Assembly (NCBI GenBank): GCA_029263055.1
Contig: JAJCYG010000002.1
Coordinates: 21,362 to 85,361 of the forward strand
From: Actinomycetes bacterium
Lineage (GTDB): Bacteria; Auribacterota; JAJCYG01
Direction of reading: 5' to 3'
DNA: 64,000 nucleotides
Translations under genes and position numbers: made by a program
In this document: positions 5,938 to 58,320 of the stretch, piece after piece
Position numbering within the stretch: the stretch's first letter is position 1
Layout: each line of letters opens with the position of its first letter
Notes under the pieces: model-generated
Told to the model about the DNA's origin: nothing
Seen by the model: only the letters and a program-made list of their open reading frames with translations
Databases searched by the model: none

Positions 5938-6005
5938 CGAAAACAGCTTTGCCTTAAGTGTATGTCGTTGTTTTACTTTTTAACCTGCTAACGATTGAGG
6001 TTCCA

Positions 6006-8307: not shown

Positions 8308-9126
8308 TTAAAGTGTGGTTTGGGCTGCCCTTAGGGCAGCCAGGCCTGCTTCAATTTTGCGGTCTAATTCTTTTTGATGAGCTTGATAAGCTAACTCTTC
8401 CTGACGTGCTTTTTCTGATTCTATTTCTGCTGCTTGATCTAATTCCTCTTGAACGCTGTACCAATCTTCTAGTGTGAATGGCTGCGCTCCATCTTTCCAT
8501 GCTTCGAGTTCAGGAATAAAAAATTGGGGTGCTTCTTGTTCCAGTTTTAGGAGCAACCAAACAGAAAAAGTGGTTTGCATTTCTTCGAGTTCTTCAACAG
8601 TTACTTCTAATTCTTCGATGATTGCTGTTGCAGTGAGTGGCGTTCTTGTTTCAGTTTTTCTGTTTTTGGCTTGAGCTAATTTTATTTTTAATTGAGAGCT
8701 ATGTTTGGCAATAATCTGCCATGCTGTGATCACTTGCATCATATCTGGATCTTCTTTTTCTTCTCTTAATTTTCGAGCTAATGCACCTACGGCATAACTT
8801 TGATCTGCTCCATCTCGAACTAAATCTTCTTCTGTCCAGCCCCAATCCTCTAATACGAGGTGGGCGATATCTTCGCGATTTGAAGGGGGAATAGAAGGGC
8901 GAACTTGAAGGGAGTCTGTTAGGGCTCTTTGCTCATCTATTTCAGCAAGCATTTCTTGGGTTATCCATGGGTTATTAAACTCTCCTTCCTTTATAAGGGC
9001 CTTTTTATGTAGTTTGATGAATTCTGATGTGGCTGCGAGGTAGTTTTTGCTGTTTTGTTGTTTGTAAGAGGGTAAGTTTATGCTGCTAATAAAGATAATT
9101 AAAATAGTTAATAATTTTTGACCCAT
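8308..9126 (-). CDS. Leader-tagged acidic coiled-coil protein (hypothetical)
   Basis: 272 aa. N-terminus MGQKLLTILIIFISSINLPSYKQQNSKNYLAATSE matches the leader of the neighbouring giant genes. The protein is Glu/Asp-rich and helical, and ends ...AAQTTL. It is transcribed divergently from 9353. Confidence 0.6.
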   Translation of the reverse strand: MGQKLLTILIIFISSINLPSYKQQNSKNYLAATSEFIKLHKKALIKEGEFNNPWITQEMLAEIDEQRALTDSLQVRPSIPPSNREDIAHLVLEDWGWTEEDLVRDGADQSYAVGALARKLREEKEDPDMMQVITAWQIIAKHSSQLKIKLAQAKNRKTETRTPLTATAIIEELEVTVEELEEMQTTFSVWLLLKLEQEAPQFFIPELEAWKDGAQPFTLEDWYSVQEELDQAAEIESEKARQEELAYQAHQKELDRKIEAGLAALRAAQTTL

Positions 9127-13171: not shown

Positions 13172-13203
13172 GGTTGTTTGATTAACTCATAGGAGGTTGT
13201 GTG

Positions 13204-21472: not shown

Positions 21473-24400
21473 ATGCGTTGTATTCGATCTCTGTTTTCAT
21501 TCCTGTTAGTACTCACTTTAATCAATCCCATCCCGATAAAAACAGAAACAAAAGAACTTAGTTTTCTTGCTCCTAAGTCAATTAACTTAGTTGGGGTCGC
21601 CTACGCTTCTTTTAAACAGTTGGTTCAACAAAAACTTTCTCCAGATCAAATCCTTGCTGAATTAGAAGATCGATTTAAAAACTATCCTGAGTATGAAGCT
21701 TTAGTGCCGGTATTAAAGTATTGGGTTGTGGAGCAACGGGGTTTTGCACTTCCTTCTGACTTAGATGGTCTTGTTTATGACGAAGAGGAATATACCAGAA
21801 GATTAGGAGAACCAGGTTTATACCCTTTTTCTCGTTCAAGAAATGCAGAAGGTTTAAGAAGAGGGCTTCAAGTTAGAAAGTATTGGAGTGTGGCCACACC
21901 TGAAGGAACAAATGAAATTTTTCATGAAGTGATTGCTAAAAAGGGATCACCTAGTATGGCATTTGATATTCCGACCCAAATTGGGTTGGATCCAGATGAA
22001 GGGGATCCTTCTGATGTGGGGAATGCCGGAGTTTCGATGTTTCGTTTGAAAGATTATGAAGATGCTTTTGATGGGATTGATCAAACAGCAGTAAACAGTA
22101 ATTTCACCATTAATGGAACGGCGATGTATGTGGTGGCTGCATATGAAGCATTAGCGCGTAAGCGGGCTAAAGAGATGTCTCTTGACGATCTAAGAGCCAA
22201 AGCAAAAAAAATATTACAAGCAGAAGCTAGACGACATAAAAAAAGGAAACGGACTAAACAAGAAGAAGCCGCATTAGCTAGAGCCGCTACATTTGATTCA
22301 ATGGAAGAAAGTGAATTGCGCAAAGAAGCTTTAGTTGTGATGAAAAGTGCGATCCGTGGAACGATTCAAAACGATGTTTATAAAGAGTATGTGGCTCGAA
22401 ATAACTTTGTTTTTCCTTTAAGAGGAACAAATCGTCTCTTTGCTGATTTTATGGAACATGCCCAAAAAGAACTTCCTGTGTTTCGTTTGGTGAGTGTGTG
22501 TGGTTACCATATGCGCGAAAAAGAGAGCACGCCTGCCCAAGAAGTGGCTTATGCGATTAATGATGCGTTGCAATATATTGCTATTACCATGGAGCAAAAG
22601 AAAGATTTAGATCCAAATGAGTTTGTTTCTCTATTTTCTTTTTTCTTTAATACAAAACTCGCTGGTTTTTTAGAAGGAGAAGATGAAAAAAAGACAAACC
22701 TTACCTTATTAACAGAATCTGCAAAAGTTCGAGCAGGGCGTCGCATTTGGGCAAAGCTAATGAAAGAGGGGCTTGGTTTAACAGAGAGTAAAGCACTTAA
22801 TTTTGCTGTGATGAATTACTCGGGTGGAACCGAAGCAACTAAATCTAAAATGGAATTAACAACAGGGCGTTTGGCTCTACAAAGTCTGGCTTCTTTATTG
22901 GGTACTCCTCAGGGAACCAATAGTTATTCTGCGGATGAAGCCATTGATATTCCTGTTCCATTTTACGGAAGAATGTCTCTTTTAACTGACTACATCACTA
23001 TTTTGGAACGTGGGATCACCGATCAAGTTGATCCTGCAGGTGGTTCTTATTATTTTGAATCATTAACAGATCAAATCGAAGCGGAAATTTGGACGATCTT
23101 AAAATCATTTGCTCAAAAGAAAGATTTTCGTGAAGTGCTCACACAGATGCGCAATGATACGAATCGCATTTCCCAAGAAATGGAAAATGCGTTTCAAGCT
23201 CCTTCTACAGATCCAAAGCACTTACCTAAAGTGGGACGTAATGTTTCTACTGAAGGAAAAGATCTTTATCCAACCCAAGAAGCTATTGATCTGCCTGCTT
23301 CTGAAGCCATTAAAGAGGAAGAAAGAACAGCAGCAAAAGAAGAAAAATATAAGCCGCCAAGATTAAGTGATGAAGAAAGAAGACGGGTAGCACAACTTCC
23401 AGAGTCAATCAGAGATCGAATTTATGGCATCAATGAAACGTTAAGGCAGTCTGGCTTAAAACCAGATATTCGAAGGCGTTTAGTTGATTTAAGAACTCAT
23501 TTGATGACGCGTGATAATGAAATCGTTTTTGGTTACATTGAACGATTAAAAGTTGCTGCTCAATCAGGTGAAACTAATTTAATGGATTTGACTGTTGAAG
23601 CAATCGAAGCAGGGTTAACCGTTGGAGAATGGAAAAAAGCATTAACAGAAATATTTGGAGAGTCAGCTACTGGCTTTGATCGCGTTACTTCTGTGGGAGC
23701 AGGTCCTTGGCAACCTCAAAATCCAGATGATTTATCAAGAGATCAATCTGTTCCTGTCTACTCTGAAACAATTAAAGAATTTATTTTGGCTCAGGATGGG
23801 GTTGAGTCTTCTTTAAAAGAAGGCCTTGAAAAAAACTTTTTTGATGAAACTAATTCTGATTTGGTTCAAGCAGATGCTTTAGAGGCTCCGGGGCAGTATC
23901 CTTATACAAGAGGAACATCTGATTCTGAATACAAATTAAATGCAGTTGTTTCCAGACAGTGGACATCTACAGTTCAAGATCCTTTGACGAGTACCTTATT
24001 AAGTCGCCCTACTTCTCAATCTGAAAAAGATATTATTGATGCGATACTAACTGGAAAAAAATTAGAGATTAATCTTGATGGTTGGGCTTTAGCTGAAGAG
24101 GGGGCTGATGCAAAGTGGGAAATGGCCCTTTTAATTCGTAATGCCCATTCTTTAATTGAAACCATTGTTAGTGAGCTCAAAGAGAAAAGCAATATAGATA
24201 TTCAGCCTGAAACCCTTTTAGAATCGATTTCTGTGACCGTTAGTATTGGAGATGATGCGTTGACCGAAGTTGCTAAAATCCGCGCATTGCGTCAGCTTTG
24301 GGCTCAATGGTTTAGCGAAGCTTATGGACTTTCCCAAGAACACAAAGGTCTTAAACTAAAAATCAATGCTCGAACAGCAGCTTATGTTCTTTCTAAAGAA

Positions 24401-27400
24401 CAGAGTTGGGTGAATGAAGCACGTATTGCCCAGCAAGTGATGTTAGCGGCTTGGGGTGGTGTGGATTCAGTAGAAGCGCTCCCTTTTGACTATTTATTTC
24501 GTGATGAAACATTTGATACAAATTGGTCTGATTGGGCCGATCGTATGGCTTGGGATACTGTTAAAGTGGTTGCTCTTGAAGCAGGGGGAAATGGGTTGAG
24601 AGATCCATTAGGTGGTTCGTTTTCATTAGAATCTAAAACAAAAGCAGTTGCGGCACAAACAAGAGCGCTTTTAGATGAACTTAGTTCTTATTCTTCGCAA
24701 TCAGAATTTTTGAATCATACTCGAAAAGCATTGGCACGACAAAAACGTGGAAGAGATTCACAAAAACGGGTTGGAGATATTTTGGATGATCCTCGCTACC
24801 CTGATGTGACAGAAGAAGAGCAGTATTATCCTGAGAAGAAAAAACGTTTTAATCGAACACGAGTGACTGATGAAATTGTGCCAGCTATTTCAACGCGTGA
24901 ATGGGTGCAGCCTAAACAAGAACCTGTCCACGTCTTTTCTTTTCTGGAAGGAGAGACTCCTGCCTGGCAAACCGATTTGATTCGTGAAACCTTAAAAGAG
25001 AAAGGTTTTTCTTTTAACGATGAAGATGTGAACCGTTGGGTTGATGCTGTCAAGGAAAGTGTTAAATACGAATTAGGAGTGGGTGAAGAGCGTACACTCT
25101 TTGGCCAAGGTGGAAAAAGAAGATTGATTGGAAACTTTCGTATTGCTTTAGGAAAGGTCGGAGGAGATGGTCATGACCGTGGATTAAACCAAGTTGCTGT
25201 CTGGTTATCTGATGCAGGGGCTACAGTCGATTATTTAGGATTAAGAGTTGATGTTGAGAATGTGGGGAGATCAGCTATTGATAATGATGTTCGGATTGTT
25301 GCTATCAGTTCGGCAACTGCTCTAAGCTATGTGCAACAACTTTGGGATTATTGGGATAATTTTGACGGAAAAGGTGTGCCTCGTTATCCTATTGTTGTGG
25401 GTGGAGCCATTCCACCTAAAGAAGCAGCTAAGCTAAGAGCATTAGGTGTGCCTGTTTTTGGTCCTGAAAGTTCACAAGCAGATATTGTGATGGGTATGCA
25501 ACGCCTCCTTTTTCGCAGTACATTCATGTCTATTTTAAACAGTGTGGCTACTCTGGATAATCGTCCTACTGTACAGACAAAAGTTGAGCCGACATTTCAT
25601 TCTTCTTTTCAACCCTTGGCTGATCATGAATATCTTTATTGGACTCCTTCTTTATTAAATGAAATTAGCGCCTACTATTTTTCAGATGTGGGACAAAACG
25701 AAGAACGATTAAAGAAGATTCAAGAGTTAGCTTTTCGTGGTGGAATCACTTTTCAAGATAAAAAAGATCTCTTTGGTGGCTTTCAACTGGTTTGGCCAAA
25801 TGGATACCACGTTCTGTTTAGTTACAGCGATACAGGAACCTATCATCCTGCAATGTTGGGGTACTTGGGGGATCTGAATGATCATCTTTCATTAGAACAG
25901 ATTGATGAAAATCCTGCCAATGTATTGGGTTTGGTTGTTGCTCGAGATATTTCTTTAATTAAAGAACAAATGAAGCAGTTTTTCTTTAACAATCCAGAAC
26001 GTTTTTTTGCAGAACCTTTGATCGCTGAATTGCCAAAGCGTTTTATAGAAATTAAAACACGTTATTTTGCCCTTTTAAAAGAAGTCACAGCAGCGTTTCA
26101 AAATGCAATAGCTCCTTTTAATAAACAGCCCTTAGTTTATCCCGCTGCTTTAGAACGTGCGACCCAGAAAATTCTAGAGAAACCTGATTTTGTAGATGAG
26201 CGTCTTTCCTTATTTGAAGAAGCTTTTCAAATGTTAGATGAGCGTTATATGAATTTAAGAGTGCGCGACCGCTGGGATATTGGAAGAACTAAATTACCAG
26301 AAACACGCATTTCTCCACGCCAAATGATTTTAAAGAGTGGATTGTTTGATACTGAAAAAATGGTCGAACTTGCTGATAGTAAGAAAGGCCCTGTTAAGCG
26401 TGTTGACACAACAGTATTAGATGTGTTTTTAAAGCGACATAAAATTCCTGCTTCTCCAAAAGATATTTCTGATTCACTTGATTCTAAAGATCCAACAAAA
26501 GAAAAAGAAAATATAAAACGTCGTACCATTATGCAGCAAAGAGAAGCTGCTCGTCTTTTTATTGCTTATGGTTTAAATGATGATCAAAAAGTGATTGATT
26601 CAATTAAATCCATTTTAGGACTTGGCAGAAGAGAGGATTTGATTGGTGGTACAGAAAAGAAATTTAAATTAAAAACTAAAGCAGAAACCATTCAAGTGTT
26701 AGTTGCTTTATTTGAAGCAAATAATTTTGATGATGAAACAATCTTTACTGCTTTGACTCGTTTCAAAGGAAGTGAAGGGGATCGAGATGACTCTGTCTTA
26801 GTGGTTGCCTTTGAAAAAGGGTTTGAAAAAGAGATCCGTGCCAAAACAAATGGTTCGGGTTATGTGCGGCCCCGTGGAATGTGGAAAATGATTCGTTCGA
26901 TTCGTTTGGCAGAGATGTTGCGGGTACCCATTTTGTTTTTAAATGATGCCACAGGAGCATGGGTGGGTGTTGAGGCTGATCTGGATGATCAAGGCCAAGC
27001 TATTTCACGTTTAACTTCTGTGAACTTGAGTAAGAATGTGCCCGGTGTTTCAGTTATAACGGGTGAAGCAGGCTCTGCACCTATTTTAGCCACATCTGTT
27101 GATCCTATTTGGATGCTACAATATGCCTTTCGAAATACAAGTAATCCACTCAGTGCTTTTATTTTTGAAAATATTAAAGATCGCGTTGTGGCTTACTTTT
27201 TTGGTGGAAAAATCGATGGAGAAAAAATTAATCCATTGTCATTAGAAGATCTTCCTAACGTAAAAGAAAAAGACCTTGATCTGTTACGTAGAAAAGCACT
27301 TTCAGATATAACTGAGCTTTTAAAGTTAAAACTAAATAAAAAACTAAAAACAGAGGGACAAGCATTAGGAGAAGAAGCTTTTGATGCTGAAATAAAGAGA

Positions 27401-36778: not shown

Positions 36779-38464
36779 ATGAAAGAAGAATCTGACTGGG
36801 ACATTCAACACGAGATCGAAGCCTTTATAGAGCGAAAAGCTCCCTCCACGCTTCATTATAATCTTTCTGCTGAAGCCTTGTTTCAAAAAGCAATCCGCCG
36901 TAAAGAAGGGGAAGAGACTTCCACTGGAGCTTTTCGTGCGGTTGATTTACCGGTTAATCGCCGGGGTCGTTCGCCCAAAGACAAGTTTTTTGTCAAAGAT
37001 TCCAAATCTAAAGAAGCGCGAAACATTCATTGGGGGCCTAACCAACCCATTGAGCGCGATTGTTTTGAAAAGATTAAGAAAAAACTCTTTGCGCATTTAG
37101 CTGAGCAAAAAGAACTCTTTGTCTTTGATGGGTATGCTGGTGCACATCCTCAGCACCGCATCAAACTCCGTGTCATTAATTCTGTTGCTTGGCAAAACTT
37201 AACCGCGCATCATCTTTTTATTCGTCCAGAAAAAGGAGTGGTGCCCAAGCATGCTCCGCCCGAGCTTACTTTGGTGAGTGCCCCTAATCTTCATTTAGAT
37301 GGAGAAAAAGATGGCGTGCATTCAGATGCCGCCATGCTGATTGATATTAAGAACCAACTGATTCTTATTGTAGGAGCTCCTTATGATGGAGAAATGAAGA
37401 AGTCGGTTTTTACTTATTTGAATTACCTTTATATGGAAGCAGATGGAGTGCTCCCGATGCATGCTTCTGCAAGCCTTGCAGAAAATGGAGAGTGCGTGAT
37501 CTTTTGTGGGCTTTCAGGTACAGGAAAGTCGACCTTATCTGCTCGTAATTTAACCATGGTTGCCGACGATGAATTAGGCTGGGACCAAGAGCAAGGGGTT
37601 TATAACTTTGAAGGAGGCGTCTTTCCTAAAACAGAAGGCTTAGATGAAAAACAAGAGCCAGAACTCTTTCACGGAATTTGTGACACAGCTGTAGTTCAAA
37701 ATGTCCCTTTTGCTTTAATGAAAAACGGAGAACTTCAAAAGAAAAAAGGAAAACCAGTATTAGATTACAAAAACCCTTATCTTAATGAAGAAGAAAAAGA
37801 ACACAATATAGTCACATCAAATGGAAGAGTGGTGGTTCCATTAACACATCTTCCTAAAGCAGTACAAAGTGGATTAGGGGGTAAGCCAAAAGTTCTTTTC
37901 TTTTTAACCATGGATGCATGGGGTGTGTTGCCGCCCATTTCAATTATTAAAGATCCTAAAATGATTAAGTATCTCTTTTTGTCAGGCTACACAGCTAAAG
38001 CCCCAGGAACAGAAGTAGGGGAAGCCAGCTTAGAACCTAGTGCCACCTTTAGTTCGCTTTTTGGCGAACCTTTTTTTCCGCGCCCTTATATTGCCTATGC
38101 TGACCGTTTAATGGAGCACATCAAAACAGAAAAGGTGGCGGTTTACTTACTAAACACAGGCTGGAGTGGCGGCAAATATGGAGTGGGCAAGCGGATGAAC
38201 TTAAACAAAATAACCATTCCTTTACGAGATGCTGCCATCAATCAAACTTTAGACATCACCTCTAAAAACTTAACCGAGCACTCTATATTCAAAGGATTAT
38301 GGATGCCCAAAGAGGTTCCAGGTATCACGGATCCTTTCATCTTAAATCCCAAATCCTCTTGGCCTAAAGACAAACAAAGCCAATACAACGATATTGCCCA
38401 TTCCCTAGTCCACCGCTTCCAAGCCAATGCCAAAAACAAAGAATTTTCAGAACTCATTCCTTAA
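36779..38464 (+). CDS. pckA: Phosphoenolpyruvate carboxykinase (ATP), leaderless
   Basis: 561 aa. Motifs: GRSPKDKFFV, kinase-1a P-loop GLSGTGKSTLSA near nt 37509, and LLNTGWSGG. Confidence 0.9.
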   Translation: MKEESDWDIQHEIEAFIERKAPSTLHYNLSAEALFQKAIRRKEGEETSTGAFRAVDLPVNRRGRSPKDKFFVKDSKSKEARNIHWGPNQPIERDCFEKIKKKLFAHLAEQKELFVFDGYAGAHPQHRIKLRVINSVAWQNLTAHHLFIRPEKGVVPKHAPPELTLVSAPNLHLDGEKDGVHSDAAMLIDIKNQLILIVGAPYDGEMKKSVFTYLNYLYMEADGVLPMHASASLAENGECVIFCGLSGTGKSTLSARNLTMVADDELGWDQEQGVYNFEGGVFPKTEGLDEKQEPELFHGICDTAVVQNVPFALMKNGELQKKKGKPVLDYKNPYLNEEEKEHNIVTSNGRVVVPLTHLPKAVQSGLGGKPKVLFFLTMDAWGVLPPISIIKDPKMIKYLFLSGYTAKAPGTEVGEASLEPSATFSSLFGEPFFPRPYIAYADRLMEHIKTEKVAVYLLNTGWSGGKYGVGKRMNLNKITIPLRDAAINQTLDITSKNLTEHSIFKGLWMPKEVPGITDPFILNPKSSWPKDKQSQYNDIAHSLVHRFQANAKNKEFSELIP

Positions 38465-38538
38465 GAACAGCTTGCTCTGATTGTTCTCTCTTGAAAAAAA
38501 GTGCTTTTTTTGTTATATTATTTGTCTATTTTATTTAA

Positions 38539-40719
38539 ATGCAGATAGTTATGATTAAAAAAATAACCCTACTTATCACTCTTTTTTTAGCCACTCAGCA
38601 GGCAGTCATGCAACCTGTGAGCAGGATTTTTTTCTATAAAAATTTACAACCTACCAGTCAGATCAAGGAAATTTCAAAAAAAATTAAAAGAAAACCAAAA
38701 GAAATAAAGCCAATCACGATTAGATGGGAACAGTTACTCGGCAAGTCTTTGCCTGAACGAGTGACTCTTTTAAGGGAAAACATGAATCACACCTATCTTA
38801 CTTTAGCTGATGAAATACTTATTGGCTGGCGAACGCTCTCTCGTTTTGAAAAAGGGGGGACTGTGAATCACACAACAATAAAAAAGATCCTTGGTTATTT
38901 TAAACGTATCGGAGTCAATGAAAACTGGTTGTATGGATTTACTTTAAAGAATGAAGACTTAGTTGGAAAGACCTTTCGAGAAAGGGTAAAACTACTTCGA
39001 GAAAATCTTGGATGGAGTTATTTAAAAATGGCAGAGGTTGCCATTGTTGATGAAGGTACAGTCCGCCGAATTGAAAATCTAGAAGATGATTTTATTCCTT
39101 CACCCTTAACAAAAAATAAATTTATTTCAGCATTTAAAAAATATGGAGCTCCTGATCATTGGTTTATCGATGAAGTGACTCTTTCTGCAGAGGATTTTGT
39201 TGGAAAAACATTTGGACAAAAAGTAGAAATGGTTAGAAAAAACTTATGCTGGGAGAAACAAGTTTTAGCACGTGAATTGTCGATTCATCACGCAACTATT
39301 TCGGGTGTAGAGAATGAACATAAACATTATACCCCGAGTAAAGAAATGGTGAAAAAGTTTGTTGATTTGTTTGTTTTGTATGGAGCAGAAGAAGAGTGGT
39401 TTGAAGATGATGGGCGTTTTGAAAGGGTCTATAAAAAGATTAAAGAAACGAGGGGTAGTTTAAAAAAAGAGGACATTATTGGCTTTAGGTTTGGACTTAA
39501 AATATTATTGCTTCGCACTTATTTGGGTTTGAAGCAGGGTGATGTTGCAAGCGATTTACAAATGAGTACTCAAACAGTATGTTTATTTGAAAAAGGTGTT
39601 CAGAAATATAAATGGAGAAAATCGACTTTGCTGAAATTAGTTCGTTATTTCGGTGAAAAAGGAATCCCTGAAGAATGGGTGGTTCATGATATGCGCATTC
39701 CTGGCATTACCCCGTATAAAGTAAGATATCTTTTTGAGCGTTTTGACTGTGATTTGAAGGAATTTGCTGAGCTGGTTGGCTTAAATGAAAAACATTTAAA
39801 AAAGATCCTTGATTTAAAAGGGGAGATAACGCGAAAAACAGAATTGAAATTATTAAAAGCATTTGAACATTATCACGCAATGCATTTACTTGAATTAAGA
39901 GAAGTGACTTTAACAAAAGAATTTTTGGAGGGAAGGTCCATTGGCCAGAGAATTAAATTTTTACGTTTGAATTTAGATTGGACTTACGAACAATTCTTCG
40001 AGGCTATTCAAAAAAAGGTTTCTATTGGAACCTTGCGCAATATTGAAAGTGGTCGGACAAAAAGAATTCAAAGAGATAAACTGATTTCTATTCTTTCGGC
40101 ATTTAAGGATTATGGAGTGACAGAGGATTGGTTTTATGACTCTTTAAGGGAAGAAGATATTAAGGGGCTCTCTTTTAAGAAGCAAATAAATATCTTTCGA
40201 AATAAATTGAAGCTTACTCTGTCTGAATTAGCTTCTAAAGCTAGAATTGGCGAATCTGCTTTACGAAAAATAAATGCTCAAACATTGCGTTCAACTAAAG
40301 AGAAGCTTATTGATGTCTTTTTGCCTTTTGGTGCAAGAAAAGAATGGTTTGAAGGTTTTGATGGGGTTGAAGAATTAGGTGGAAGAAGAGTCAAAGCGAT
40401 TCATTTAGAAAAAGAAGAAGTGTCAGCGCTTGAGTTTCATGAACGAATAAGAGTTATAAGAGAAGCAATAGGATTGAGTCGATCAGAATTAGCCGAGTTG
40501 GCAGGATTGACCAAGACAACACTAAATAGTATAGAAACAAGACCTCTTAAAAGGGCGATGATCACAACATACAAAAACTTAGGTTTGATATTAACTGTAT
40601 TTGCACACTATGGAGTGACTTCTGATTGGTTTGAAGATTTGAAGGTTTTTAAACCTATTCTTTTTTCCGAGCATGTTAAATCAGTCCCTTTGCCCAATTT
40701 ATTTGAAATAGCAATATAA
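38539..40719 (+). CDS. Leader-tagged protein of eight tandem XRE-type helix-turn-helix modules
   Basis: 726 aa. About eight units of 75-80 aa, each of the form [F-x-x-R/K-hydrophobic-x-x-hydrophobic-R...G/W-S/T...L-A...T-hydrophobic-x-x-hydrophobic-E], followed by a [YF]G-x4-W[FLV] tail (YGAPDHWF, YGAEEEWF, YGVTEDWF, FGARKEWF, YGVTSDWF...). Leader MIKKITLLITLFLATQQAVMQPVSRIFFYKNLQPTS; C-terminus ...LFEIAI. Confidence 0.65.
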   Translation: MQIVMIKKITLLITLFLATQQAVMQPVSRIFFYKNLQPTSQIKEISKKIKRKPKEIKPITIRWEQLLGKSLPERVTLLRENMNHTYLTLADEILIGWRTLSRFEKGGTVNHTTIKKILGYFKRIGVNENWLYGFTLKNEDLVGKTFRERVKLLRENLGWSYLKMAEVAIVDEGTVRRIENLEDDFIPSPLTKNKFISAFKKYGAPDHWFIDEVTLSAEDFVGKTFGQKVEMVRKNLCWEKQVLARELSIHHATISGVENEHKHYTPSKEMVKKFVDLFVLYGAEEEWFEDDGRFERVYKKIKETRGSLKKEDIIGFRFGLKILLLRTYLGLKQGDVASDLQMSTQTVCLFEKGVQKYKWRKSTLLKLVRYFGEKGIPEEWVVHDMRIPGITPYKVRYLFERFDCDLKEFAELVGLNEKHLKKILDLKGEITRKTELKLLKAFEHYHAMHLLELREVTLTKEFLEGRSIGQRIKFLRLNLDWTYEQFFEAIQKKVSIGTLRNIESGRTKRIQRDKLISILSAFKDYGVTEDWFYDSLREEDIKGLSFKKQINIFRNKLKLTLSELASKARIGESALRKINAQTLRSTKEKLIDVFLPFGARKEWFEGFDGVEELGGRRVKAIHLEKEEVSALEFHERIRVIREAIGLSRSELAELAGLTKTTLNSIETRPLKRAMITTYKNLGLILTVFAHYGVTSDWFEDLKVFKPILFSEHVKSVPLPNLFEIAI

Positions 40720-40939
40720 TTTGTAAGGTATAAGTATTTATATCAAGGTTGTTTAGGGTATATATCTTGTCTGATGTCGTCGTGGCTTCTCTTGCCTTTT
40801 TATTCTAAAAGGTTTAAATTACCCATTCTTTCTTAACGATTATGAGAATAAAAAACTGCATATCTTCTCAGTCTTATCGTCACCAATTTAGTCCTGCAAG
40901 ACCTTTCTATCTATTTACCTTTAAAAGGAGGAGTTGTTT

Positions 40940-43900
40940 ATGTTGCGCATCATAAGTGGAGTGGTTTCGTTTTTGTTTTTGTTTCAATCGGTGATTACGG
41001 TTGATTTGCAGTTAGCCTCTTTAAAGGGGTTAAATCGGTTTTTAGCTCCTCCTGCTGAATTGCCGGTTCAACCTCCTAAACGAGAAATTATTTCAGCTCC
41101 TGTAGCGGATCTTAATTTTGAAGCAACACAGATTGAAGATTCTAAAGGAAGACCGACTGTTCAAGTGACGATTACTTATAAAGGTATTTCTGTTGTTGGA
41201 GCGGTTCCTGCAGGAACGTCTACAGGGGATGATGAAGCCAACACATTACCAACTGAGCAAGCAATCACAGCCCTTCGAGATGTGATTTTTTCTGGAATTA
41301 AAGAAATGGATTTAGATTTAAGCAATCACAAAGACCTTATTCAAATCGAAGAGTGGTTGATTGCTAATGCGGGCGAAAATTTTAAAACTTGGGGGGCTAA
41401 TGCCACGGTTCCTTTATCATGGGCGTTGTGGGAAATGGCTGCCAAGCTAAATAGTTTGGAACTTGATGAATACTTTGCTGGGTTTGTTCCTGAAACAGCA
41501 GGGGCGCCGGGAAGTGTTCGTTTTTATATGAACATCTACAACGGTGGTGAGCATGCGCGTCAAGAGGGTGAAGAGTTAGGCAAAGATCGTATTGATATTC
41601 AAGAGATCATGATTGTTCCTGACGATTCATTTCCTTATGAAGAGCAGCTCGCTATTGGAGATAAAGTTGACCAAGAATTAAAAGCCATTTTGATCGAAGC
41701 TGATGCCGGTGAAATTAGTCGCGGAAACGAGTCTGGGTTTACGGTTAAAGGAATCGGTGACAGTGATGTGGCTATAGGACATGTCTTTGAAGCCATCAAA
41801 CGAGCTGGGTATACGCCTGGAGCCGATGTGAAGCTTGCCTTGGATGTGGCTGCCAGTGAGTTCTATGATCGTGATGCAGGTGTTTACAACTTTCGTGGAG
41901 AAAAACTCAGTTCAGAGCAAATGGTTACTTACTATGCTGACTTAGTTGAGACTTATGCTGGAATGTTTCTTTCTATTGAAGATGGAATGGATCAAAACGA
42001 TTGGGAAGGTTGGAAACTTTTTAAAGAAGTGATGGCCAATCAGAATGTTGAAACAATCGGAGATGATCTCTTTGTGACCCAACAAGGACGTTTGCAAAAA
42101 GGGATTGATGAAAACTCCGCCAGTTCTATTTTAATTAAAGTGAATCAAAATGGTTCTGTTTTAGGAACGTTAAAAGTCATTCGTCAAGCCATTGGTGCCA
42201 ACATGAGCTTTGTGATCTCGCACCGCTCAGGTGAAACGTTGCACACAGGAATTGCTGATTTAGCTGAAGCAACCGGAGCACTTGGTTTGAAAACAGGAGA
42301 TCCACAACCACCAGCAGATACTGAATATTTCGGTGATCCTTCTCAACAAGTCCGTCGCGTGAAGTACGAACGCATGGTTACGATTCAAGAACGCAAAGCA
42401 GCCAAAGATGCGCGTGCAAAAGCAAGATTGAAAAAACAGCTAACATTGCTTGGTCTTGATGTTGAGGATACAACCTTGTATCACAACGCACCGATTCGTC
42501 AACTCTTTGATATTGCGGAGTTAAATGGTGAAGGGCGTCGTACAGCAACAGGTGCTTTTTTGGTTAATCCAACAAATAAGCTCGACCGTGGACGTCGAAA
42601 AAAACACCGTTATGTGGTGCAAGTTAAAGGGAGTGAAGCCGATCAAAATATGGGATGGCATACTGAAGATAAACCTTCTCCAAATAAACCGATCACACCA
42701 GAACATTACAAAAGAATTAAAGCCAAAGTGGTCAAACATCTTTCTGATCGTGGAGAGCTTTTTGTTGGAGATTATCTTTCAGCAAGACATGAAGGATATC
42801 AAAAGCGTGTTCGTTACATCGGTGAAAAAGCGTTCCAAGCTGTGGGGGTTCGCCACCTTTTTGTGCGACCAGAAGCTGAAAACCAAGTGGGTGATTTAGG
42901 CCCTGCAGATTTTACTATTTTAACCGCTCCTGATTATAAGATTGAGCGAGAAGATCGTATGCCGCATCAAAAAGATGGTGAAGCTGATTACGCCATGATT
43001 ATTGTCGATGTGGAAAATGGGTTGGTCATCATTACTGGAACCAACTACATTGGTGAAAATAAAAAATCAATCTTTGCCTTGATGAACTATGTGTTTGGTT
43101 TGACTGAAGGAACGGTTTCAACTCACTCTTCAGCTGGGCAATCAGAGACAACTGGAAATGTAGGCGTTTGGAAAGGGTTGTCTGGAACCGGTAAATCTTC
43201 TCTTTCAGCTAAAGATGGAGTTGAGAGTTTTTCTGATGATGAAACCACGATCTGGATTGAGCCTAAGACCTATAAAGAAATTCGTTCTGCAATGGAATCT
43301 GGAGCAACATTACCTGATGACTTGGTTCAAGGGGTTTTAAGTGGGGAGCTCGCAGGTATCTTTGATATTGAAGGGGGACTTTTTCCTAAAACATGGGAGC
43401 TGACTCCAGAAAAAGAGGGACGTCTGTACCGTGCTAGTCGTTCGTATCCAGCCATTCTTCAAAATGTGCCGACTGTTCGTGAAGGGGATGAAGAAGTTTT
43501 AGTTGATGGTCGGCCGATTCCTGATTTTATGGCCCACCATTTGCATGGAGAAGATATTGTTATTGCCAATGGTCGTGCAACGTTCCCACGTGAAAGTATG
43601 CCTGATACACCTCAAGATGGTTTAGGTGGACCGCCTAACGTGATGTTTTATTTGACCCAAGATCGCATGGGCGTGCTGCCTCCTGTGTCAGTTATTAAAT
43701 CTGCTGAAGATGCGCAGTTTTTAAATCTGTTAGGTTACACAGCAACAGCTGCAGGTACTGAGCAAGGGGCAAAACCAGGTGCGACTTACAGTCCATTATT
43801 TGGAGACCCATTTTTTCCGGGTCCATTTGAATTGTATGCACGTAAAGAGACTGAAATTATTGGGGCATTAAACTATGTTCGCAATCAAGCAGGTCTGAAG

Positions 43901-44308
43901 CCAATTCCATTTGTTCTTTTAAATACAGGTTGGAGTGGTGGACCTGAAGGAACAGGAAAACGGATGTCAATTAACTTAACGGTTCGTTTACGTGATGCGG
44001 CATTAAATGGAGACTTAGATTTAAGTGAAGAAAATTTAGTCGAGCATCCTATTTTTAAGGGATTGCTTGTGCCTAAAGTGGTGCCGGGTGTGACAGATTC
44101 AAAAGAAGTCGCTTCTTTAGATCCTGTTAATTCCTGGCCTGAAGATCGACGTGCTGATTATGAGCCCGAAGCAACAGAGCTTTTTGGCACTTGGGGTAAA
44201 CAAGCCAGCCAGCGAGGTTTTTGGCAGCTTTACCCAGGAAGCAATGGGTTTGCTTCCTTAGATGAGTTAGACGCTTCACGTAAATCAGCGGCTTCTATTA
44301 GCATTTAA
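40940..44308 (+). CDS. Leader-tagged enolase + ATP-dependent PEP carboxykinase fusion
   Basis: ATG 40940 lies 6 nt after AAGGAGGAG (the track starts at TTG 40934). The enolase domain lies around nt 41080-42400 (DSKGRPTVQV, AVPAGTSTGDDEA, LDVAASEFY, SIEDGMDQNDW, GDDLFVTQ, LIKVNQNGS, ISHRSGET, LKTGDP). The PEPCK domain lies around 42440-44250 (GLSGTGKSSLSA near nt 43174, LLNTGWSGG). Leader MLRIISGVVSFLFLFQSVITVDL...NRFLAPPAE; C-terminus ...AASISI. Confidence 0.85.
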   Translation: MLRIISGVVSFLFLFQSVITVDLQLASLKGLNRFLAPPAELPVQPPKREIISAPVADLNFEATQIEDSKGRPTVQVTITYKGISVVGAVPAGTSTGDDEANTLPTEQAITALRDVIFSGIKEMDLDLSNHKDLIQIEEWLIANAGENFKTWGANATVPLSWALWEMAAKLNSLELDEYFAGFVPETAGAPGSVRFYMNIYNGGEHARQEGEELGKDRIDIQEIMIVPDDSFPYEEQLAIGDKVDQELKAILIEADAGEISRGNESGFTVKGIGDSDVAIGHVFEAIKRAGYTPGADVKLALDVAASEFYDRDAGVYNFRGEKLSSEQMVTYYADLVETYAGMFLSIEDGMDQNDWEGWKLFKEVMANQNVETIGDDLFVTQQGRLQKGIDENSASSILIKVNQNGSVLGTLKVIRQAIGANMSFVISHRSGETLHTGIADLAEATGALGLKTGDPQPPADTEYFGDPSQQVRRVKYERMVTIQERKAAKDARAKARLKKQLTLLGLDVEDTTLYHNAPIRQLFDIAELNGEGRRTATGAFLVNPTNKLDRGRRKKHRYVVQVKGSEADQNMGWHTEDKPSPNKPITPEHYKRIKAKVVKHLSDRGELFVGDYLSARHEGYQKRVRYIGEKAFQAVGVRHLFVRPEAENQVGDLGPADFTILTAPDYKIEREDRMPHQKDGEADYAMIIVDVENGLVIITGTNYIGENKKSIFALMNYVFGLTEGTVSTHSSAGQSETTGNVGVWKGLSGTGKSSLSAKDGVESFSDDETTIWIEPKTYKEIRSAMESGATLPDDLVQGVLSGELAGIFDIEGGLFPKTWELTPEKEGRLYRASRSYPAILQNVPTVREGDEEVLVDGRPIPDFMAHHLHGEDIVIANGRATFPRESMPDTPQDGLGGPPNVMFYLTQDRMGVLPPVSVIKSAEDAQFLNLLGYTATAAGTEQGAKPGATYSPLFGDPFFPGPFELYARKETEIIGALNYVRNQAGLKPIPFVLLNTGWSGGPEGTGKRMSINLTVRLRDAALNGDLDLSEENLVEHPIFKGLLVPKVVPGVTDSKEVASLDPVNSWPEDRRADYEPEATELFGTWGKQASQRGFWQLYPGSNGFASLDELDASRKSAASISI

Positions 44309-47044: not shown

Positions 47045-48409
47045 ATGAGTCATCGCGTAGAAAAAGATTCTTTAGGGGAAAAGCAAGTCCCAGAAAAAGC
47101 ATATTACGGCATTCAAACATTGCGGGCTGTTGAAAATTTCCCGATCAGTGGGATCAAGCAGCATTCAGAGTTAGTTTGGGGTGTGGCCTGTATTAAGAAA
47201 GCAGCTGCTTTGGCGCACACTGATTTAGATTTGTTAACTTCTGAAGTGGGAGAGGCCATTGTTAAAGCAGCCACTGAAGTTTTAGATGGAAAGTTTAATG
47301 AAGATTTTGTGGTAGACCCTTATCAAGCTGGAGCCGGAACCTCGCATCACATGAATGTGAATGAAGTGATTGCCAACCGAGCCAACGAAATGTTGGGAGG
47401 CAATAAAGGGGAATACACACCTGTTAATCCTAATGATCATGTGAACATGGCCCAATCAACCAATGATGTGATTCCGACAGCCATTCGTTTGGCGACATTA
47501 AAATGTTTAGATGAACTTGAGCCCATCTTAAAAGATTTACAAATAGCCTTAGAAAACAAAGCAAAAGAATTTGGCAAAATTTTAAAATCAGGTCGCACTC
47601 ATTTGCAAGATGCCGTGCCCATGACTTTAGGACAAGAGTTTAGTGGCTTTGCTAAAGTGGTTGAAGAACGCATTCGCGAAATCAAAGAACGTAAAGTGTC
47701 GTTGACTCGTTTAGGGATTGGCGGAACAGCTGCTGGAACAGGCATGAACGCTCATCCTGAATATGCTAAGCGTGTTGTCGACCATCTTAAAGAATTAACA
47801 GGTTTGCCCGTTGAAAATTCACCCAACCTTTTTGAAGCCATGCAGAGCATGGGGTGCTTTACAGAAATCTCATCAGCCTTGCGTAACTTGGCTTGTGATA
47901 TGACTAAGATTGCCAATGATTTTCGTCTGCTTTCAAGTGGGCCTAATACGGGTTTGGATGAAGTTCGTTTGCCTGCTGTGCAACCAGGCTCGTCGATTAT
48001 GCCAGGTAAAGTCAATCCTGTGATGGCAGAGATGTTAAACATGGTGATGTACCAGGTGATTGGAAATGATCATACTATTTTGATGGGAGCTCAAGCCGGG
48101 CAATTAGAATTAAATGTGATGATGCCGCTTATTGGGTACAACATGATTCAAAACATCAAACTGCTTAAAAACTCATTGTCTGTGTTTACCACGCGCTGTG
48201 TCAACGGATTGAGCGCGCAACCTGAAAAGTGCGAAGCTTTTTTTGCCAACACATTAGGATTGGCCACTGCACTGAACCCGCAAATAGGGTATTTGGCTGC
48301 TGCTGAAATTGTGAAAGAATCAATGAAATCAGGCAAATCAATCAAACAACTTGTGATCGATAAAAAACTATTAACAGATAAAGAGTTTGACGCTCTATTT
48401 TTGGACTAA
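47045..48409 (+). CDS. aspA: Class II fumarase/aspartase family lyase, most like aspartate ammonia-lyase
   Basis: 454 aa. Signature GSSIMPGKVNP. The N-terminus EKDSLGEKQVPEKAYYGIQTLRAVENFPISG resembles AspA more than FumC. I cannot settle AspA versus FumC by eye. Confidence 0.7.
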   Translation: MSHRVEKDSLGEKQVPEKAYYGIQTLRAVENFPISGIKQHSELVWGVACIKKAAALAHTDLDLLTSEVGEAIVKAATEVLDGKFNEDFVVDPYQAGAGTSHHMNVNEVIANRANEMLGGNKGEYTPVNPNDHVNMAQSTNDVIPTAIRLATLKCLDELEPILKDLQIALENKAKEFGKILKSGRTHLQDAVPMTLGQEFSGFAKVVEERIREIKERKVSLTRLGIGGTAAGTGMNAHPEYAKRVVDHLKELTGLPVENSPNLFEAMQSMGCFTEISSALRNLACDMTKIANDFRLLSSGPNTGLDEVRLPAVQPGSSIMPGKVNPVMAEMLNMVMYQVIGNDHTILMGAQAGQLELNVMMPLIGYNMIQNIKLLKNSLSVFTTRCVNGLSAQPEKCEAFFANTLGLATALNPQIGYLAAAEIVKESMKSGKSIKQLVIDKKLLTDKEFDALFLD

Positions 48410-58258: not shown

Positions 58259-58320
58259 TATATATGTAAGTAGTTACCAGTAAAAAAGTTACACCGAATG
58301 ACTTGTCGAGGTTAAAGACG

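What the first reader, a model, noticed from the sequence alone, without database searches (positions are those of the whole stretch)
36779..44308. Leader-tagged enolase-PEPCK fusion beside a leaderless pckA paralogue
Seen. ORF 40940-44308 joins an apparently intact enolase to an ATP-type PEPCK. All metal and catalytic motif contexts I know are present in the enolase part: STGxxEA, DVAASEF, SIEDG, GDDL, KVNQ, SHRSGET, KTG. The C-terminal third of the PEPCK part is closely similar to the stand-alone pckA at 36779-38464. Compare LLNTGWSGGPEGTGKRMSINLTVRLRDAALNGDLDLSEENLVEHPIFKGLLVPKVVPGVTD with LLNTGWSGGKYGVGKRMNLNKITIPLRDAAINQTLDITSKNLTEHSIFKGLWMPKEVPGITD. The fused copy is more diverged near the PEP-binding block: GRRKKHRYVV against the canonical GRSPKDKFFV. 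Inference. A local duplication produced a housekeeping cytosolic copy and a targeted copy. Enolase plus PEPCK would convert 2-phosphoglycerate to PEP and then to oxaloacetate (CO2 fixation yielding ATP), or run in reverse. I am not aware of such a fusion being described, but I cannot search.
Basis: partly seen in the sequence, partly recalled or inferred. Interest (0 to 1): 0.7.

Follow-up and report, generated by a model that had tools for sequence, protein, structure and literature searches.

The report
Tagged enolase–PEPCK fusion enzyme
A real, conserved gene joins two consecutive sugar-breakdown enzymes (enolase and ATP-type PEP carboxykinase) behind a membrane-type leader, and it is one of about ten central-metabolism proteins in this window that carry the same unexplained N-terminal and C-terminal tags.

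Summary
ORF 40940-44308 encodes one 1122-aa protein: hydrophobic leader, 'LAPP' motif, complete enolase, a long connecting helix, complete ATP-PEPCK, and a short C-terminal tail. All catalytic and metal residues of both enzymes are present. A second metagenome contig carries the same fusion at 74% identity with dN/dS about 0.1, so it is not an assembly artefact.

The fused PEPCK, the leaderless pckA at 36779-38464 and a 677-aa leader-PEPCK from a syntenic relative form one clade (100% bootstrap). The paralogy is therefore real, but it is old (about 41% identity). The relative carries leader-PEPCK without enolase, which suggests the enolase joined an already tagged paralogue (polarity unproven). 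That enolase belongs to a clade known only from Omnitrophota-type multi-enzyme fusions (TIM-PGK-enolase, PGM-enolase, enolase-PPDK).

Most likely function: coupled 2-phosphoglycerate to PEP to oxaloacetate conversion with ATP gain.

The leader is one half of a two-part tag. The other half is a C-terminal tail ending in I or L. Nine complete ORFs here carry both parts, including CoA/B12 mega-enzymes and a DNA-binding repeat protein. Where the tag sends these proteins is unresolved. The enolase-PEPCK architecture appears undescribed and very rare.

The parts
36779..38464 (+). Stand-alone ATP-type PEPCK (pckA, 561 aa). It has no leader and no C-terminal tail.
   Evidence: PEPCK_ATP hit at 446 bits over the full length. 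Orthologues at 76-84% identity lie in syntenic loci. The N-terminus MKEESDWD and the C-terminus ...SELIP lack the tag.
38539..40719 (+). Leader- and tail-tagged protein made of about eight Xre-type HTH repeats. It is present only in loci that also carry the tagged PEPCK.
   Evidence: HTH_3, HTH_31 and HTH_19 hits. Leader ...FFYKNLQPTSQ and tail ...LFEIAI. The orthologue in L001 is present; in L085, L086 and L087 it is absent together with the second PEPCK.
40925..40933 (+). Shine-Dalgarno sequence AAGGAGGAG. Its AGGAGG core lies 8 nt upstream of the ATG at 40940.
   Evidence: Read directly from the sequence.
40940..44308 (+). Coding sequence of the 1122-aa leader-enolase-PEPCK-tail protein.
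   Evidence: (P0001 is the 1122-aa product).
40940..41002 (+). N-terminal leader (aa 1-21): a short n-region with Arg3, then an uncharged hydrophobic span IISGVVSFLFLFQSVITV.
   Evidence: pLDDT is below 50 in the model. It is nearly the same peptide as the leader of ORF 13201.
41042..41053 (+). 'LAPP' motif (aa 35-38), the conserved element that follows the hydrophobic span in all tagged proteins. A Pro-rich linker follows it, up to aa 57.
   Evidence: The motif L-[ASQ]-[PA] sits 5-20 aa after the hydrophobic span in 10 window ORFs and in P0128. The equivalent 'LRP' occurs in Omnitrophota mega-fusions.
41111..42379 (+). Enolase module (aa 58-480), of the fusion-type clade, with all catalytic and metal residues.
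   Evidence: Pfam. PDB enolases at E = 6e-63. Alignment and residue map. Clade bootstrap 100%. Foldseek TM 0.85-0.87.
42380..42469 (+). Basic connecting segment (aa 481-510), predicted as part of one continuous helix (aa 473-503). It has no hydrophobic leader and no Gly-Gly site.
   Evidence: AF2 secondary structure. dN/dS of 0.16 between the two fused genes. The segment RLKKQLTLLGL aligns with RVKVELEAIGI, which directly follows the leader in P0128.
42470..44233 (+). ATP-type PEPCK module (aa 511-1098) with all catalytic residues.
   Evidence: Pfam and NCBIfam. PDB alignments. Residue map. Foldseek TM 0.86-0.92.
43244..43354 (+). Lineage-specific 37-aa insertion (aa 769-805) between the DDE (kinase-2) motif and the F/I-EGG motif. 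It is predicted to be folded.
   Evidence: It is absent from pckA and from PDB PEPCKs. A shorter 14-aa version sits at the same place in P0128. pLDDT is 91-98 with two helices.
44234..44305 (+). C-terminal tail (aa 1099-1122) ending ...SAASISI. This is the second half of the tag and is absent from pckA.
   Evidence: It aligns with the P0128 tail ...SLAATSI. Nine of nine tagged ORFs end in I or L after small residues. pLDDT is below 50.

Best explanation
**What it is.** The gene encodes a genuine bifunctional enzyme. The enolase module dehydrates 2-phosphoglycerate to PEP. The PEPCK module on the same chain carboxylates PEP with ADP to give oxaloacetate and ATP. The reverse direction is chemically possible.

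**What fusing the steps does.** Joining the producer of PEP to one of its consumers commits PEP at a metabolic branch point to the C4 branch. In this organism that branch plausibly continues through fumarase and the methylmalonyl-CoA enzymes encoded nearby.

**How it arose.** The most likely route has three steps:
1. An old duplication of pckA within this lineage.
2. The new copy gained an N-terminal hydrophobic leader with an L-A-P motif and a C-terminal tail ending in small-small-I/L.
3. An enolase module of the clade used in Omnitrophota-type glycolytic mega-fusions was inserted in frame between the leader and the PEPCK.

**What the tag does.** The two-part tag is shared with at least eight other complete ORFs in the window. 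It most likely brings these proteins to one place, at or across the cytoplasmic membrane.

**Shown versus inferred.** Shown: the gene is real, it is under selection, the residues are conserved, the paralogy holds, the locus series exists and the tag is shared. Inferred: enzyme activity, reaction direction, substrate channelling and location.
For: - **Domains, residues and folds are intact:**
- **Second independent fused gene:** dN/dS is about 0.1 across both modules and the linker.
- **PEPCK clade:** it contains the pckA orthologues, P0128 and the fused copies at 100% bootstrap. The exhaustive search ranks the window's own pckA and P0128 directly after the fused relative.
- **Three locus states with identical flanks:** pckA only (L085-L087), pckA + HTH-repeat + leader-PEPCK (L001-L003), and pckA + HTH-repeat + leader-enolase-PEPCK (window, L084).
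- **Features shared only by P0128 and the fused PEPCK:** the leader, the tail, and an insertion after DDE.
- **Enolase clade:** the enolase falls in the fusion-type clade at 100% bootstrap. It is 50-56% identical to mega-fusion enolases and 40-42% identical to canonical ones, and it shares the clade's indels.
- **Relatives fuse this enolase to neighbouring pathway steps:** dPGM-enolase (P0003), TIM-PGK-enolase (P0004, P0010 and others), and enolase-PPDK (P0012).
- **Pathway context:** class II fumarase at 47045-48409, and methylmalonyl-CoA mutase + B12-binding + carboxyltransferase at 21473-29911. Seymour et al. 2023 propose PEPCK as an ATP-yielding route to oxaloacetate in Omnitrophota (PMC10066038).
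- **Start and tag:** strong RBS; the tag is shared by nine complete ORFs.
Against: - No activity data exist.
- Both modules score below NCBIfam equivalog cut-offs: enolase 270.7 against 300, and pckA model 255.9 against 590. The stand-alone pckA also fails its cut-off.
- The PEPCK has a 37-aa insertion near the nucleotide site, and its lid segment reads GYTATAAGTEQG instead of GFTAKLAGTERG. The effect of both is unknown.
- The NJ tree puts P0128 with the stand-alone pckA rather than with the fused copies. Orthology of P0128 and the fused PEPCK therefore rests on synteny and shared indels. Loss of enolase in the relative is as parsimonious as gain.
- The leader obeys the positive-inside rule for an N-in/C-out orientation. 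That would put an ATP-dependent enzyme outside the cytoplasm.
- The inter-domain geometry of the model rests on only two sequences that span both modules.
Confidence: 0.6

Rival explanations
1. This is the housekeeping enzyme. The fused protein is the organism's only enolase, the leader is simply an inner-membrane anchor, and the enzymes stay on the cytoplasmic face. On this reading the tag builds a membrane-tethered metabolon and does not create a separately located second copy. This overlaps with the best explanation and differs only on location and redundancy.
For: - All close relatives of this enolase module are fused and leader-bearing. No stand-alone version of the clade was seen.
- The tag sits on enzymes that need ATP, CoA, B12, FAD or DNA: acyl-CoA synthetase and dehydrogenase, methylmalonyl-CoA mutase, KAS III, HTH repeats and an SNF2 helicase. 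These only make sense next to the cytoplasm.
- There is no other enolase in the 64-kb window.
Against: - The n-regions are more positive than the flank after the hydrophobic span, especially in the mega-fusions (+4 to +5 against +1 to +2). Many have an AxA-like site (AYA, VYA, HAA) before the LRP motif. This is the pattern of exported proteins.
- A leaderless pckA is kept next door, which suggests the two PEPCKs are not in the same situation.
- The word-indexed search would not have listed canonical 430-aa enolases of this genome, so uniqueness is untested.
Confidence: 0.3
2. The protein is exported. The leader is a Sec signal or anchor, and the enzyme acts in the periplasm, on the cell surface or in or on a prey or host cell. 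There it would process released phosphorylated metabolites, or act as an effector.
For: - The leader has a Sec-like n-h-c layout.
- DeepTMHMM-based surveys place much metabolic domain content of Omnitrophota long proteins outside the membrane.
- West-Roberts et al. noted glycolysis-type domains predicted to be extracellular.
- Omnitrophota include a documented predator.
- The C-terminal acidic-plus-hydrophobic end recalls some type I secretion signals. This is my recollection and was not tested.
Against: - ADP/ATP, CO2 fixation and the CoA, B12 and NAD(P)H chemistry of co-tagged proteins have no known extracytoplasmic supply.
- Ordinary periplasmic proteins in the window use ordinary signal peptides or a lipobox, without the LAP motif or the tail.
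- West-Roberts et al. themselves call some predicted localisations highly unlikely.
Confidence: 0.2
3. It is an artefact: two adjacent genes merged by a sequencing or assembly error, or a chimeric contig.
For: The source is a metagenome assembly. The related contig L084 does have an assembly artefact at its 5' end, where nt 1-83 are an inverted copy of nt 637-719.
Against: - Two assemblies from different samples share the same continuous frame through the junction at 74% identity, with dN/dS of 0.16 in the linker.
- No second leader lies between the modules, which a read-through of enolase into leader-PEPCK would leave.
- The downstream synteny is identical.
Confidence: 0.02
4. The protein is non-catalytic. 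One or both modules serve as a binding or scaffold domain, for example moonlighting surface enolase, and no longer act as enzymes.
For: Surface-exposed enolase that binds host proteins is known in many bacteria (general knowledge). Both modules are divergent and score below the NCBIfam equivalog cut-offs.
Against: Every catalytic and metal-binding residue checked is retained in both modules, in both fused genes, under purifying selection.
Confidence: 0.05

Closest known systems
Leader-bearing glycolytic mega-fusions of Candidatus Omnitrophota (for example 1500-aa TIM-PGK-enolase proteins annotated 'phosphoglycerate kinase' or 'enolase'; P0004, P0010, P0018, P0020; also dPGM-enolase P0003 and enolase-PPDK P0012)
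   Same: - Same enolase clade (100% bootstrap, shared indels).
- Same logic of fusing neighbouring pathway steps.
- Same kind of N-terminal leader: a basic n-region, a 15-20-aa hydrophobic span, then an L-x-P motif.
- A conserved extreme C-terminus ending in an aliphatic residue.
   Different: - Here the enolase comes directly after the leader and is followed by PEPCK. The mega-fusions follow it with a roughly 170-aa C-terminal domain ending EFMxKV.
- The motif is LAP rather than LRP, and the tail is [small][small]I/L rather than F[MV]x[KR]V.
- No PEPCK-containing member other than P0002 was found.
Stand-alone ATP-dependent PEPCK (E. coli PckA, 1AQ2; Thermus thermophilus, 1J3B; the succinate producers Actinobacillus succinogenes, 1YGG, and Anaerobiospirillum succiniciproducens, 1YTM)
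   Same: Same fold (TM 0.86-0.92) and all catalytic residues. The succinate producers use the enzyme in the oxaloacetate-forming, ATP-yielding direction (general knowledge), which is the direction proposed here.
   Different: Only 28-30% identity. A 37-aa insertion follows the DDE motif. There is an N-terminal helix extension and a C-terminal tail. It is fused to enolase and to a leader.
Canonical enolase (phosphopyruvate hydratase, TIGR01060)
   Same: Same fold (TM 0.85-0.87) and all metal, acid-base and substrate-binding residues.
   Different: 40-42% identity. It lacks the RDGD...GKGV segment after the active-site loop. It has a roughly 10-aa insertion before the QEIM motif and a roughly 15-aa insertion after KTG. 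It scores below the NCBIfam equivalog cut-off.
Other fusions of consecutive glycolytic enzymes, and glycosomal PEPCK. Examples are the PGK-TIM fusion of Thermotoga maritima, the TPI-GAPDH fusions of stramenopiles that carry a targeting peptide, and the PEPCK of trypanosome glycosomes. All are recalled from general knowledge and are analogies only.
   Same: Consecutive steps sit on one chain. In stramenopiles and trypanosomes a targeting signal places part of glycolysis, or PEPCK-dependent succinate fermentation, in a compartment.
   Different: Different enzymes, different lineages and different signals. No homology of the fusion event is implied. Membership was not tested.

Membership tests
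Enolase (Pfam PF03952 + PF00113) | Both domains score above the Pfam gathering score | tested here: met
   Enolase_N 49.4 bits against 35. Enolase_C 200.2 bits against 21.5.
Enolase (NCBIfam TIGR01060 equivalog) | Score at or above the curated equivalog cut-off | tested here: not met
   270.7 bits against a cut-off of 300. The module belongs to a divergent clade.
Enolase | Metal ligands (yeast D246, E295, D320, S39) and catalytic or substrate residues (E168, E211, K345, H159, H373, K396) | tested here: met
   D302, E347, D375, S94, E222, E264, K400, H205, H428 and K451. The mapping of motifs to yeast numbering comes from established knowledge.
Enolase | Catalyses 2-phosphoglycerate to PEP | not testable with these tools
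   Needs an enzyme assay.
ATP-dependent PEPCK (Pfam PF01293) | Domain scores above the gathering score and covers the whole profile | tested here: met
   295.6 bits against 26.5, in two stretches split by the 37-aa insertion.
ATP-dependent PEPCK (NCBIfam TIGR00224 and NF0068xx) | Score at or above the curated cut-off | tested here: not met
   255.9 against 590, and 300.2 against 636. The stand-alone pckA also fails, at 403.8 against 590.
ATP-dependent PEPCK | P-loop GLSGTGK[TS], Mn ligands K213, H232 and D269, and substrate or phosphoryl residues R65, Y207, S250, K254, K288, R333, plus adenine-site R449 (E. coli numbering) | tested here: met
   All are aligned and conserved. T255 is Ser, as in the neighbouring pckA.
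ATP-dependent PEPCK | Catalyses PEP + ADP + CO2 to or from oxaloacetate + ATP | not testable with these tools
   Needs an enzyme assay.
Sec-type signal peptide or signal anchor | A positive n-region followed by a 15-20-aa uncharged hydrophobic span | tested here: met
   Net n-region charge is +1 to +7 and the span is 15-22 aa in the window leaders and the relatives' leaders.
Sec-type signal peptide or signal anchor | An AxA-type signal peptidase I site, and actual export or cleavage | tested here: inconclusive
   AxA-like sites are common in the LRP-type relatives (AYA, VYA, HAA). They are mostly absent in the window's LAP-type leaders. No predictor or experiment was available.
Omnitrophota-type glycolytic mega-fusions | Enolase of the fusion-type clade with its characteristic indels | tested here: met
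   100% bootstrap and shared indels.
Omnitrophota-type glycolytic mega-fusions | Leader with an L-R-P motif, and a roughly 170-aa C-terminal domain ending [ED]F[MV]x[KR]V | tested here: not met
   The window protein has L-A-P and no such domain. PEPCK plus the tail ...SISI takes its place. It is a variant, not a standard member.
Phylum Omnitrophota (organism assignment) | Marker-gene or rRNA placement | not testable with these tools
   There is no rRNA or tRNA in the window. Only the source names of the enolase relatives point to Omnitrophota. No close relative was found among GTDB species representatives.

The most novel reading that the evidence does not exclude
The N-terminal leader (hydrophobic span plus the L-A-P or L-R-P motif) and the conserved C-terminal end together form a dedicated sorting code. 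This code would move a whole block of central metabolism out of the ordinary cytosol. The block includes lower glycolysis, PEP carboxylation, methylmalonyl-CoA and acyl-CoA enzymes, and even DNA-binding proteins and a helicase. The destination could be an internal membrane-bounded or scaffolded compartment (a bacterial counterpart of the glycosome), the periplasm, or a prey cell. The untagged pckA kept beside the tagged enolase-PEPCK would then be the cytosolic twin of a compartmentalised enzyme.
Probability: 0.18. Interest if true: 0.9.

Novelty: new variant of a known kind. Interest (0 to 1): 0.62.

Why it matters
PEP is a major branch point of central metabolism, and a natural enzyme that makes PEP and carboxylates it on one chain has not been described. 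It would be a simple test case for substrate channelling, and a candidate part for engineering CO2-fixing, ATP-yielding routes to C4 acids.

The locus series is also valuable: pckA alone, then pckA plus a tagged paralogue, then the tagged paralogue with enolase fused in. It captures the build-up of a multi-enzyme protein in steps, which is rare.

The wider point is that this gene gives a small, expressible handle on an open puzzle in Omnitrophota-like bacteria. Cofactor-dependent 'cytoplasmic' enzymes there carry export-type leaders, and nobody knows why. The two-part tag seen here has a motif after the hydrophobic span and a conserved C-terminal end. It is present on the tagged PEPCK and absent from its untagged twin, which makes the question directly testable.

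Tried and rejected
**Searches that found nothing useful**
- More fused genes. A scan of 185,579 GTDB species genomes with the full protein matched only enolase parts. The best hit was a TIM-PGK-enolase mega-fusion.
- Two scans of JGI metagenome contigs found no PEPCK above 34% identity.
- The word-indexed search with the PEPCK part found only P0002 and three PEPCKs at 32% identity.
- An exact look-up of the window protein found no record.
- Cluster look-ups gave no source names.
- There is no rRNA or tRNA in the window for taxonomy.
- The Velamenicoccus paper (PMC9004380), which has proteome data, is not held.
- One broad literature search was uninformative.

**Ideas considered and dropped**
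- Assembly artefact: see the rival explanations.
- Recent tandem duplication: identity is only about 41%.
- Tat signal: twin arginines occur in only some leaders and are not conserved.
- Lipoprotein signal: the tagged leaders have no lipobox Cys, whereas ORF 52688 has one.
- Prepilin-type leader: there is no G/F-T-L-I-E motif.
- Polyprotein cleavage between the two modules: the junction has no Gly-Gly or 'DGG' site, unlike the module borders of the mega-fusions.
- The inter-domain geometry of the AlphaFold model was not interpreted, because only two sequences span both modules.

Full report

The + strand carries an open frame from 40934 (TTG) or 40940 (ATG) to the stop codon at 44306-44308. 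The ATG at 40940 follows AAGGAGGAG (40925-40933) at ideal spacing, and the database holds the 1122-aa product. The hydrophobic leader is therefore almost certainly translated.

Pfam finds Enolase_N, Enolase_C and PEPCK_ATP above gathering scores. PDB enolases match at E = 6e-63 and PDB PEPCKs at E = 1e-57.

An AlphaFold2 model has mean pLDDT 86.5. Only the leader and linker (aa 1-46) and the last 24 residues are disordered. A 31-residue helix (aa 473-503) joins the two modules. The two halves superpose on solved PEPCKs (TM 0.86-0.92) and enolases (TM 0.85-0.87).

**2. Catalytic residues**

The protein passes it.
- Enolase: alignment with canonical enolases retains the equivalents of yeast S39, H159, E168, E211, D246, E295, D320, K345, H373 and K396. 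These are S94, H205, E222, E264, D302, E347, D375, K400, H428 and K451.
- PEPCK: alignment with E. coli PckA retains R65, Y207, K212, K213, H232, S250, K254, D268, D269, K288, R333 and R449. These are R552, Y703, K708, K709, H729, S748, K752, D766, D767, K817, R879 and R1008. T255 is Ser, as it is in the neighbouring pckA.
- The diverged GRRKKHRYVV block keeps the Arg65 equivalent.

Differences from canonical PEPCK are a confidently folded 37-aa insertion (aa 769-805) between the DDE and EGG motifs, and substitutions in the lid-like GYTATAAGTEQG segment. Both modules, and also the stand-alone pckA, fall below NCBIfam equivalog cut-offs. Functional assignment therefore rests on homology and residue conservation.

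**3. Not an artefact**

A JGI contig (L084, protein P0002) from another sample carries the same architecture at 74% identity. It is followed by the same three genes: a small protein, a pyruvoyl arginine decarboxylase and a DksA-type protein. Nei-Gojobori dN/dS is 0.11 for enolase, 0.16 for the linker and 0.08 for PEPCK. Synonymous sites are saturated, so these are rough values.

The first 83 nt of that contig are an inverted copy of internal sequence. This is why P0002 appears to lack the leader. The in-frame upstream residues PAAQLPTSPPPRQII match the window's PPAELPVQPPKREII.

**4. The two PEPCK copies**

They share 37% identity over 600 aa, and 41% on trimmed columns. An exhaustive HMMER search of 1.84 billion representative proteins with the fused PEPCK part returned these top hits:
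- the fused relative, at 1076 bits;
- the window's own pckA, at 351 bits;
- a 677-aa PEPCK (P0128), at 290 bits;
- everything else at 193 bits or less.

A bootstrapped NJ tree unites these three types at 100%.

**5. How the gene was built**

Orthologues of the stand-alone pckA (76-84% identity) lie in syntenic loci that come in three states.
- State A (NCBI GCA_040960375.1 and others): APH, pckA, small gene, arginine decarboxylase, DksA.
- State B (a 292-kb Logan contig): an HTH-repeat gene and P0128 are inserted after pckA.
- State C (the window and L084): the same as B, but with the enolase present.

P0128 is leader + PEPCK + tail with no enolase. It shares three things with the fused PEPCK that pckA lacks:
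- the leader (...YSNLAPLAL);
- a C-terminal tail (...SLAATSI against ...SAASISI);
- an insertion at the same point after DDE.

The helix that directly follows the leader in P0128 (RVKVELEAIGI) aligns with the helix after the enolase in the fusion (RLKKQLTLLGL). No second leader lies between the modules. The simplest reading is that the enolase was inserted in frame between the leader and the PEPCK of an already tagged paralogue.

Two caveats apply. NJ places P0128 with pckA, and the fused pair sits on a long branch. Enolase loss in state B, or loss of the whole pair in state A, cannot be excluded without a species tree.

**6. Where the enolase comes from**

Its closest relatives (50-58% identity) are enolase modules inside 1000-1850-aa proteins, mostly labelled Candidatus Omnitrophota. 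These proteins also contain TIM, PGK, GAPDH, a dPGM-type mutase or PPDK. This clade has 100% bootstrap support and characteristic indels. Canonical enolases are only 40-42% identical.

The relatives fuse enolase to the step before it (dPGM-enolase, P0003) or after it (enolase-PPDK, P0012). Enolase-PEPCK is a third way to wire the PEP node. Across all searches, only the window gene and P0002 have this architecture. The searchable literature does not mention it.

**7. The leader is half of a two-part tag**

Ten ORFs in the window begin with a short basic n-region and a 15-20-aa uncharged span. Five to twenty residues later comes the motif L-[ASQ]-[PA], typically (N/Y)LAPxS.

All nine that are complete also end in a tail of small residues plus I or L: AAI, TTL, SSI, VAI, SSI, ASL, EAI, IAI, ISI. 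Only 4 of 19 untagged ORFs end in I or L. My hypergeometric arithmetic from those counts gives about 1e-4.

The same pairing recurs in the relatives' loci, including an SNF2-type helicase and a methylmalonyl-CoA mutase. An untagged malate synthase-isocitrate lyase fusion has neither part. The Omnitrophota mega-fusions have the equivalent pair: an L-R-P leader and an [ED]F[MV]x[KR]V end.

Tagged proteins in the window include:
- MaoC and ADH-like enzymes;
- a 2719-aa protein with lyase, hydratase, acyl-CoA synthetase and acyl-CoA dehydrogenase domains;
- a 2812-aa protein with methylmalonyl-CoA mutase, a B12-binding domain and a carboxyltransferase;
- a KAS III;
- an eight-fold HTH repeat protein.

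Housekeeping genes such as pckA, fumarase, MurC, PrmA and Nth are untagged. Ordinary envelope proteins use ordinary signal peptides.

**8. How it most likely works**

*Shown.* This is a selected, intact two-enzyme chain that carries the tag.

*Inferred.* It converts 2-phosphoglycerate through PEP to oxaloacetate with ATP formation. That direction is used by succinate-producing bacteria and has been proposed for Omnitrophota PEPCK (PMC10066038). It would feed a C4 branch for which fumarase and methylmalonyl-CoA enzymes lie nearby. The fusion would bias the PEP branch point toward carboxylation.

*Unresolved.* Location is not settled. The charge pattern of the leader predicts that the enzyme part crosses the membrane. 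This agrees with published topology predictions for Omnitrophota long proteins. The cofactor needs of the tagged set argue for the cytoplasmic side, and published authors also doubt some predicted localisations.

I favour co-localisation at the membrane, with the side undetermined.

**9. Verdict**

- The architecture is a new and rare variant of the multi-enzyme fusions typical of Omnitrophota-like bacteria.
- The most interesting outcome is the two-part tag, together with the natural pair of tagged and untagged PEPCKs, which makes the tag's function testable.

Noticed in passing
window 5958-8306(+), 8308-9126(-), 9353-13171(+), 13201-21360(+), 21473-29911(+), 29912-31246(+), 31262-34237(+), 38539-40719(+), 40940-44308(+), and 58270 to the window end (+): Two-part tag. 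The N-terminal part is a hydrophobic leader followed by an L-[ASQ]-[PA] motif. The C-terminal part is an end of small residues plus I or L. All nine complete tagged ORFs have both parts, and leaderless ORFs lack the pattern. The same pairing appears in L001 and L085. An LRP / F[MV]x[KR]V version appears in Omnitrophota mega-fusions. I found no description of it.
   Followed up: partly
window 13201-21360(+) and 21473-29911(+): Two tagged mega-enzymes. The 2719-aa protein has HpcH/malyl-CoA-lyase-like, MaoC hydratase, AMP-binding acyl-CoA synthetase and acyl-CoA dehydrogenase domains. The 2812-aa protein has methylmalonyl-CoA mutase, a B12-binding domain and a carboxyltransferase. Together they look like assembly lines for a C3/C4 acyl-CoA pathway.
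   Followed up: partly
window 38539-40719(+): A tagged 726-aa protein made of about eight Xre-type HTH repeats. It occurs only in loci that also hold the tagged PEPCK (states B and C) and is absent from state A. A DNA-binding repeat protein behind an export-type leader is odd.
   Followed up: partly
window 13204-13270 and 40940-41005: The leaders of the 2719-aa mega-enzyme and of the enolase-PEPCK fusion are nearly the same peptide: MLRFVSGLVAVMFFVSSVVTVD and MLRIISGVVSFLFLFQSVITVD. Nucleotide identity is only about 60%. This suggests selection on the peptide, or an old exchange of the leader module.
   Followed up: no
window 58270-64000(+): A giant ORF of at least 1910 aa runs off the end of the window. 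It has a tagged-type leader (...QYLSPLST) and only a weak AAA_5 hit.
   Followed up: no
L084 1-83 and 637-719: The 5' end of the JGI contig that carries the second fused gene is an exact inverted copy of internal gene sequence. This is an assembly artefact that truncates the gene's leader.
   Followed up: yes
P0010, P0025 and other mega-fusions: A 'DGG' motif (KKDGG, MDGG, ADGG) recurs shortly after the leader and at borders between enzyme modules. These could be double-glycine processing sites, in line with the C39-peptidase idea of West-Roberts et al. The window fusion has no such site at its junction.
   Followed up: no
L001 2798-7915; L085 4394-7582: In relatives, a 1705-aa SNF2/DEAD helicase-like protein carries the full tag (leader ...DYLAPSTS, tail ...ELEVAL). 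A 1062-aa malate synthase-isocitrate lyase fusion carries neither part.
   Followed up: no
P0274: A 1233-aa protein from an unrelated lineage fuses fructose-1,6-bisphosphatase to a canonical ATP-PEPCK. This is another, apparently gluconeogenic, PEPCK fusion.
   Followed up: no
window 36779-38464 and 40940-44308: Both PEPCKs and the enolase module score below NCBIfam equivalog cut-offs. Automatic annotation of this lineage may therefore leave them generic or misname them. Related mega-fusions are named after a single domain in NCBI and JGI records.
   Followed up: no
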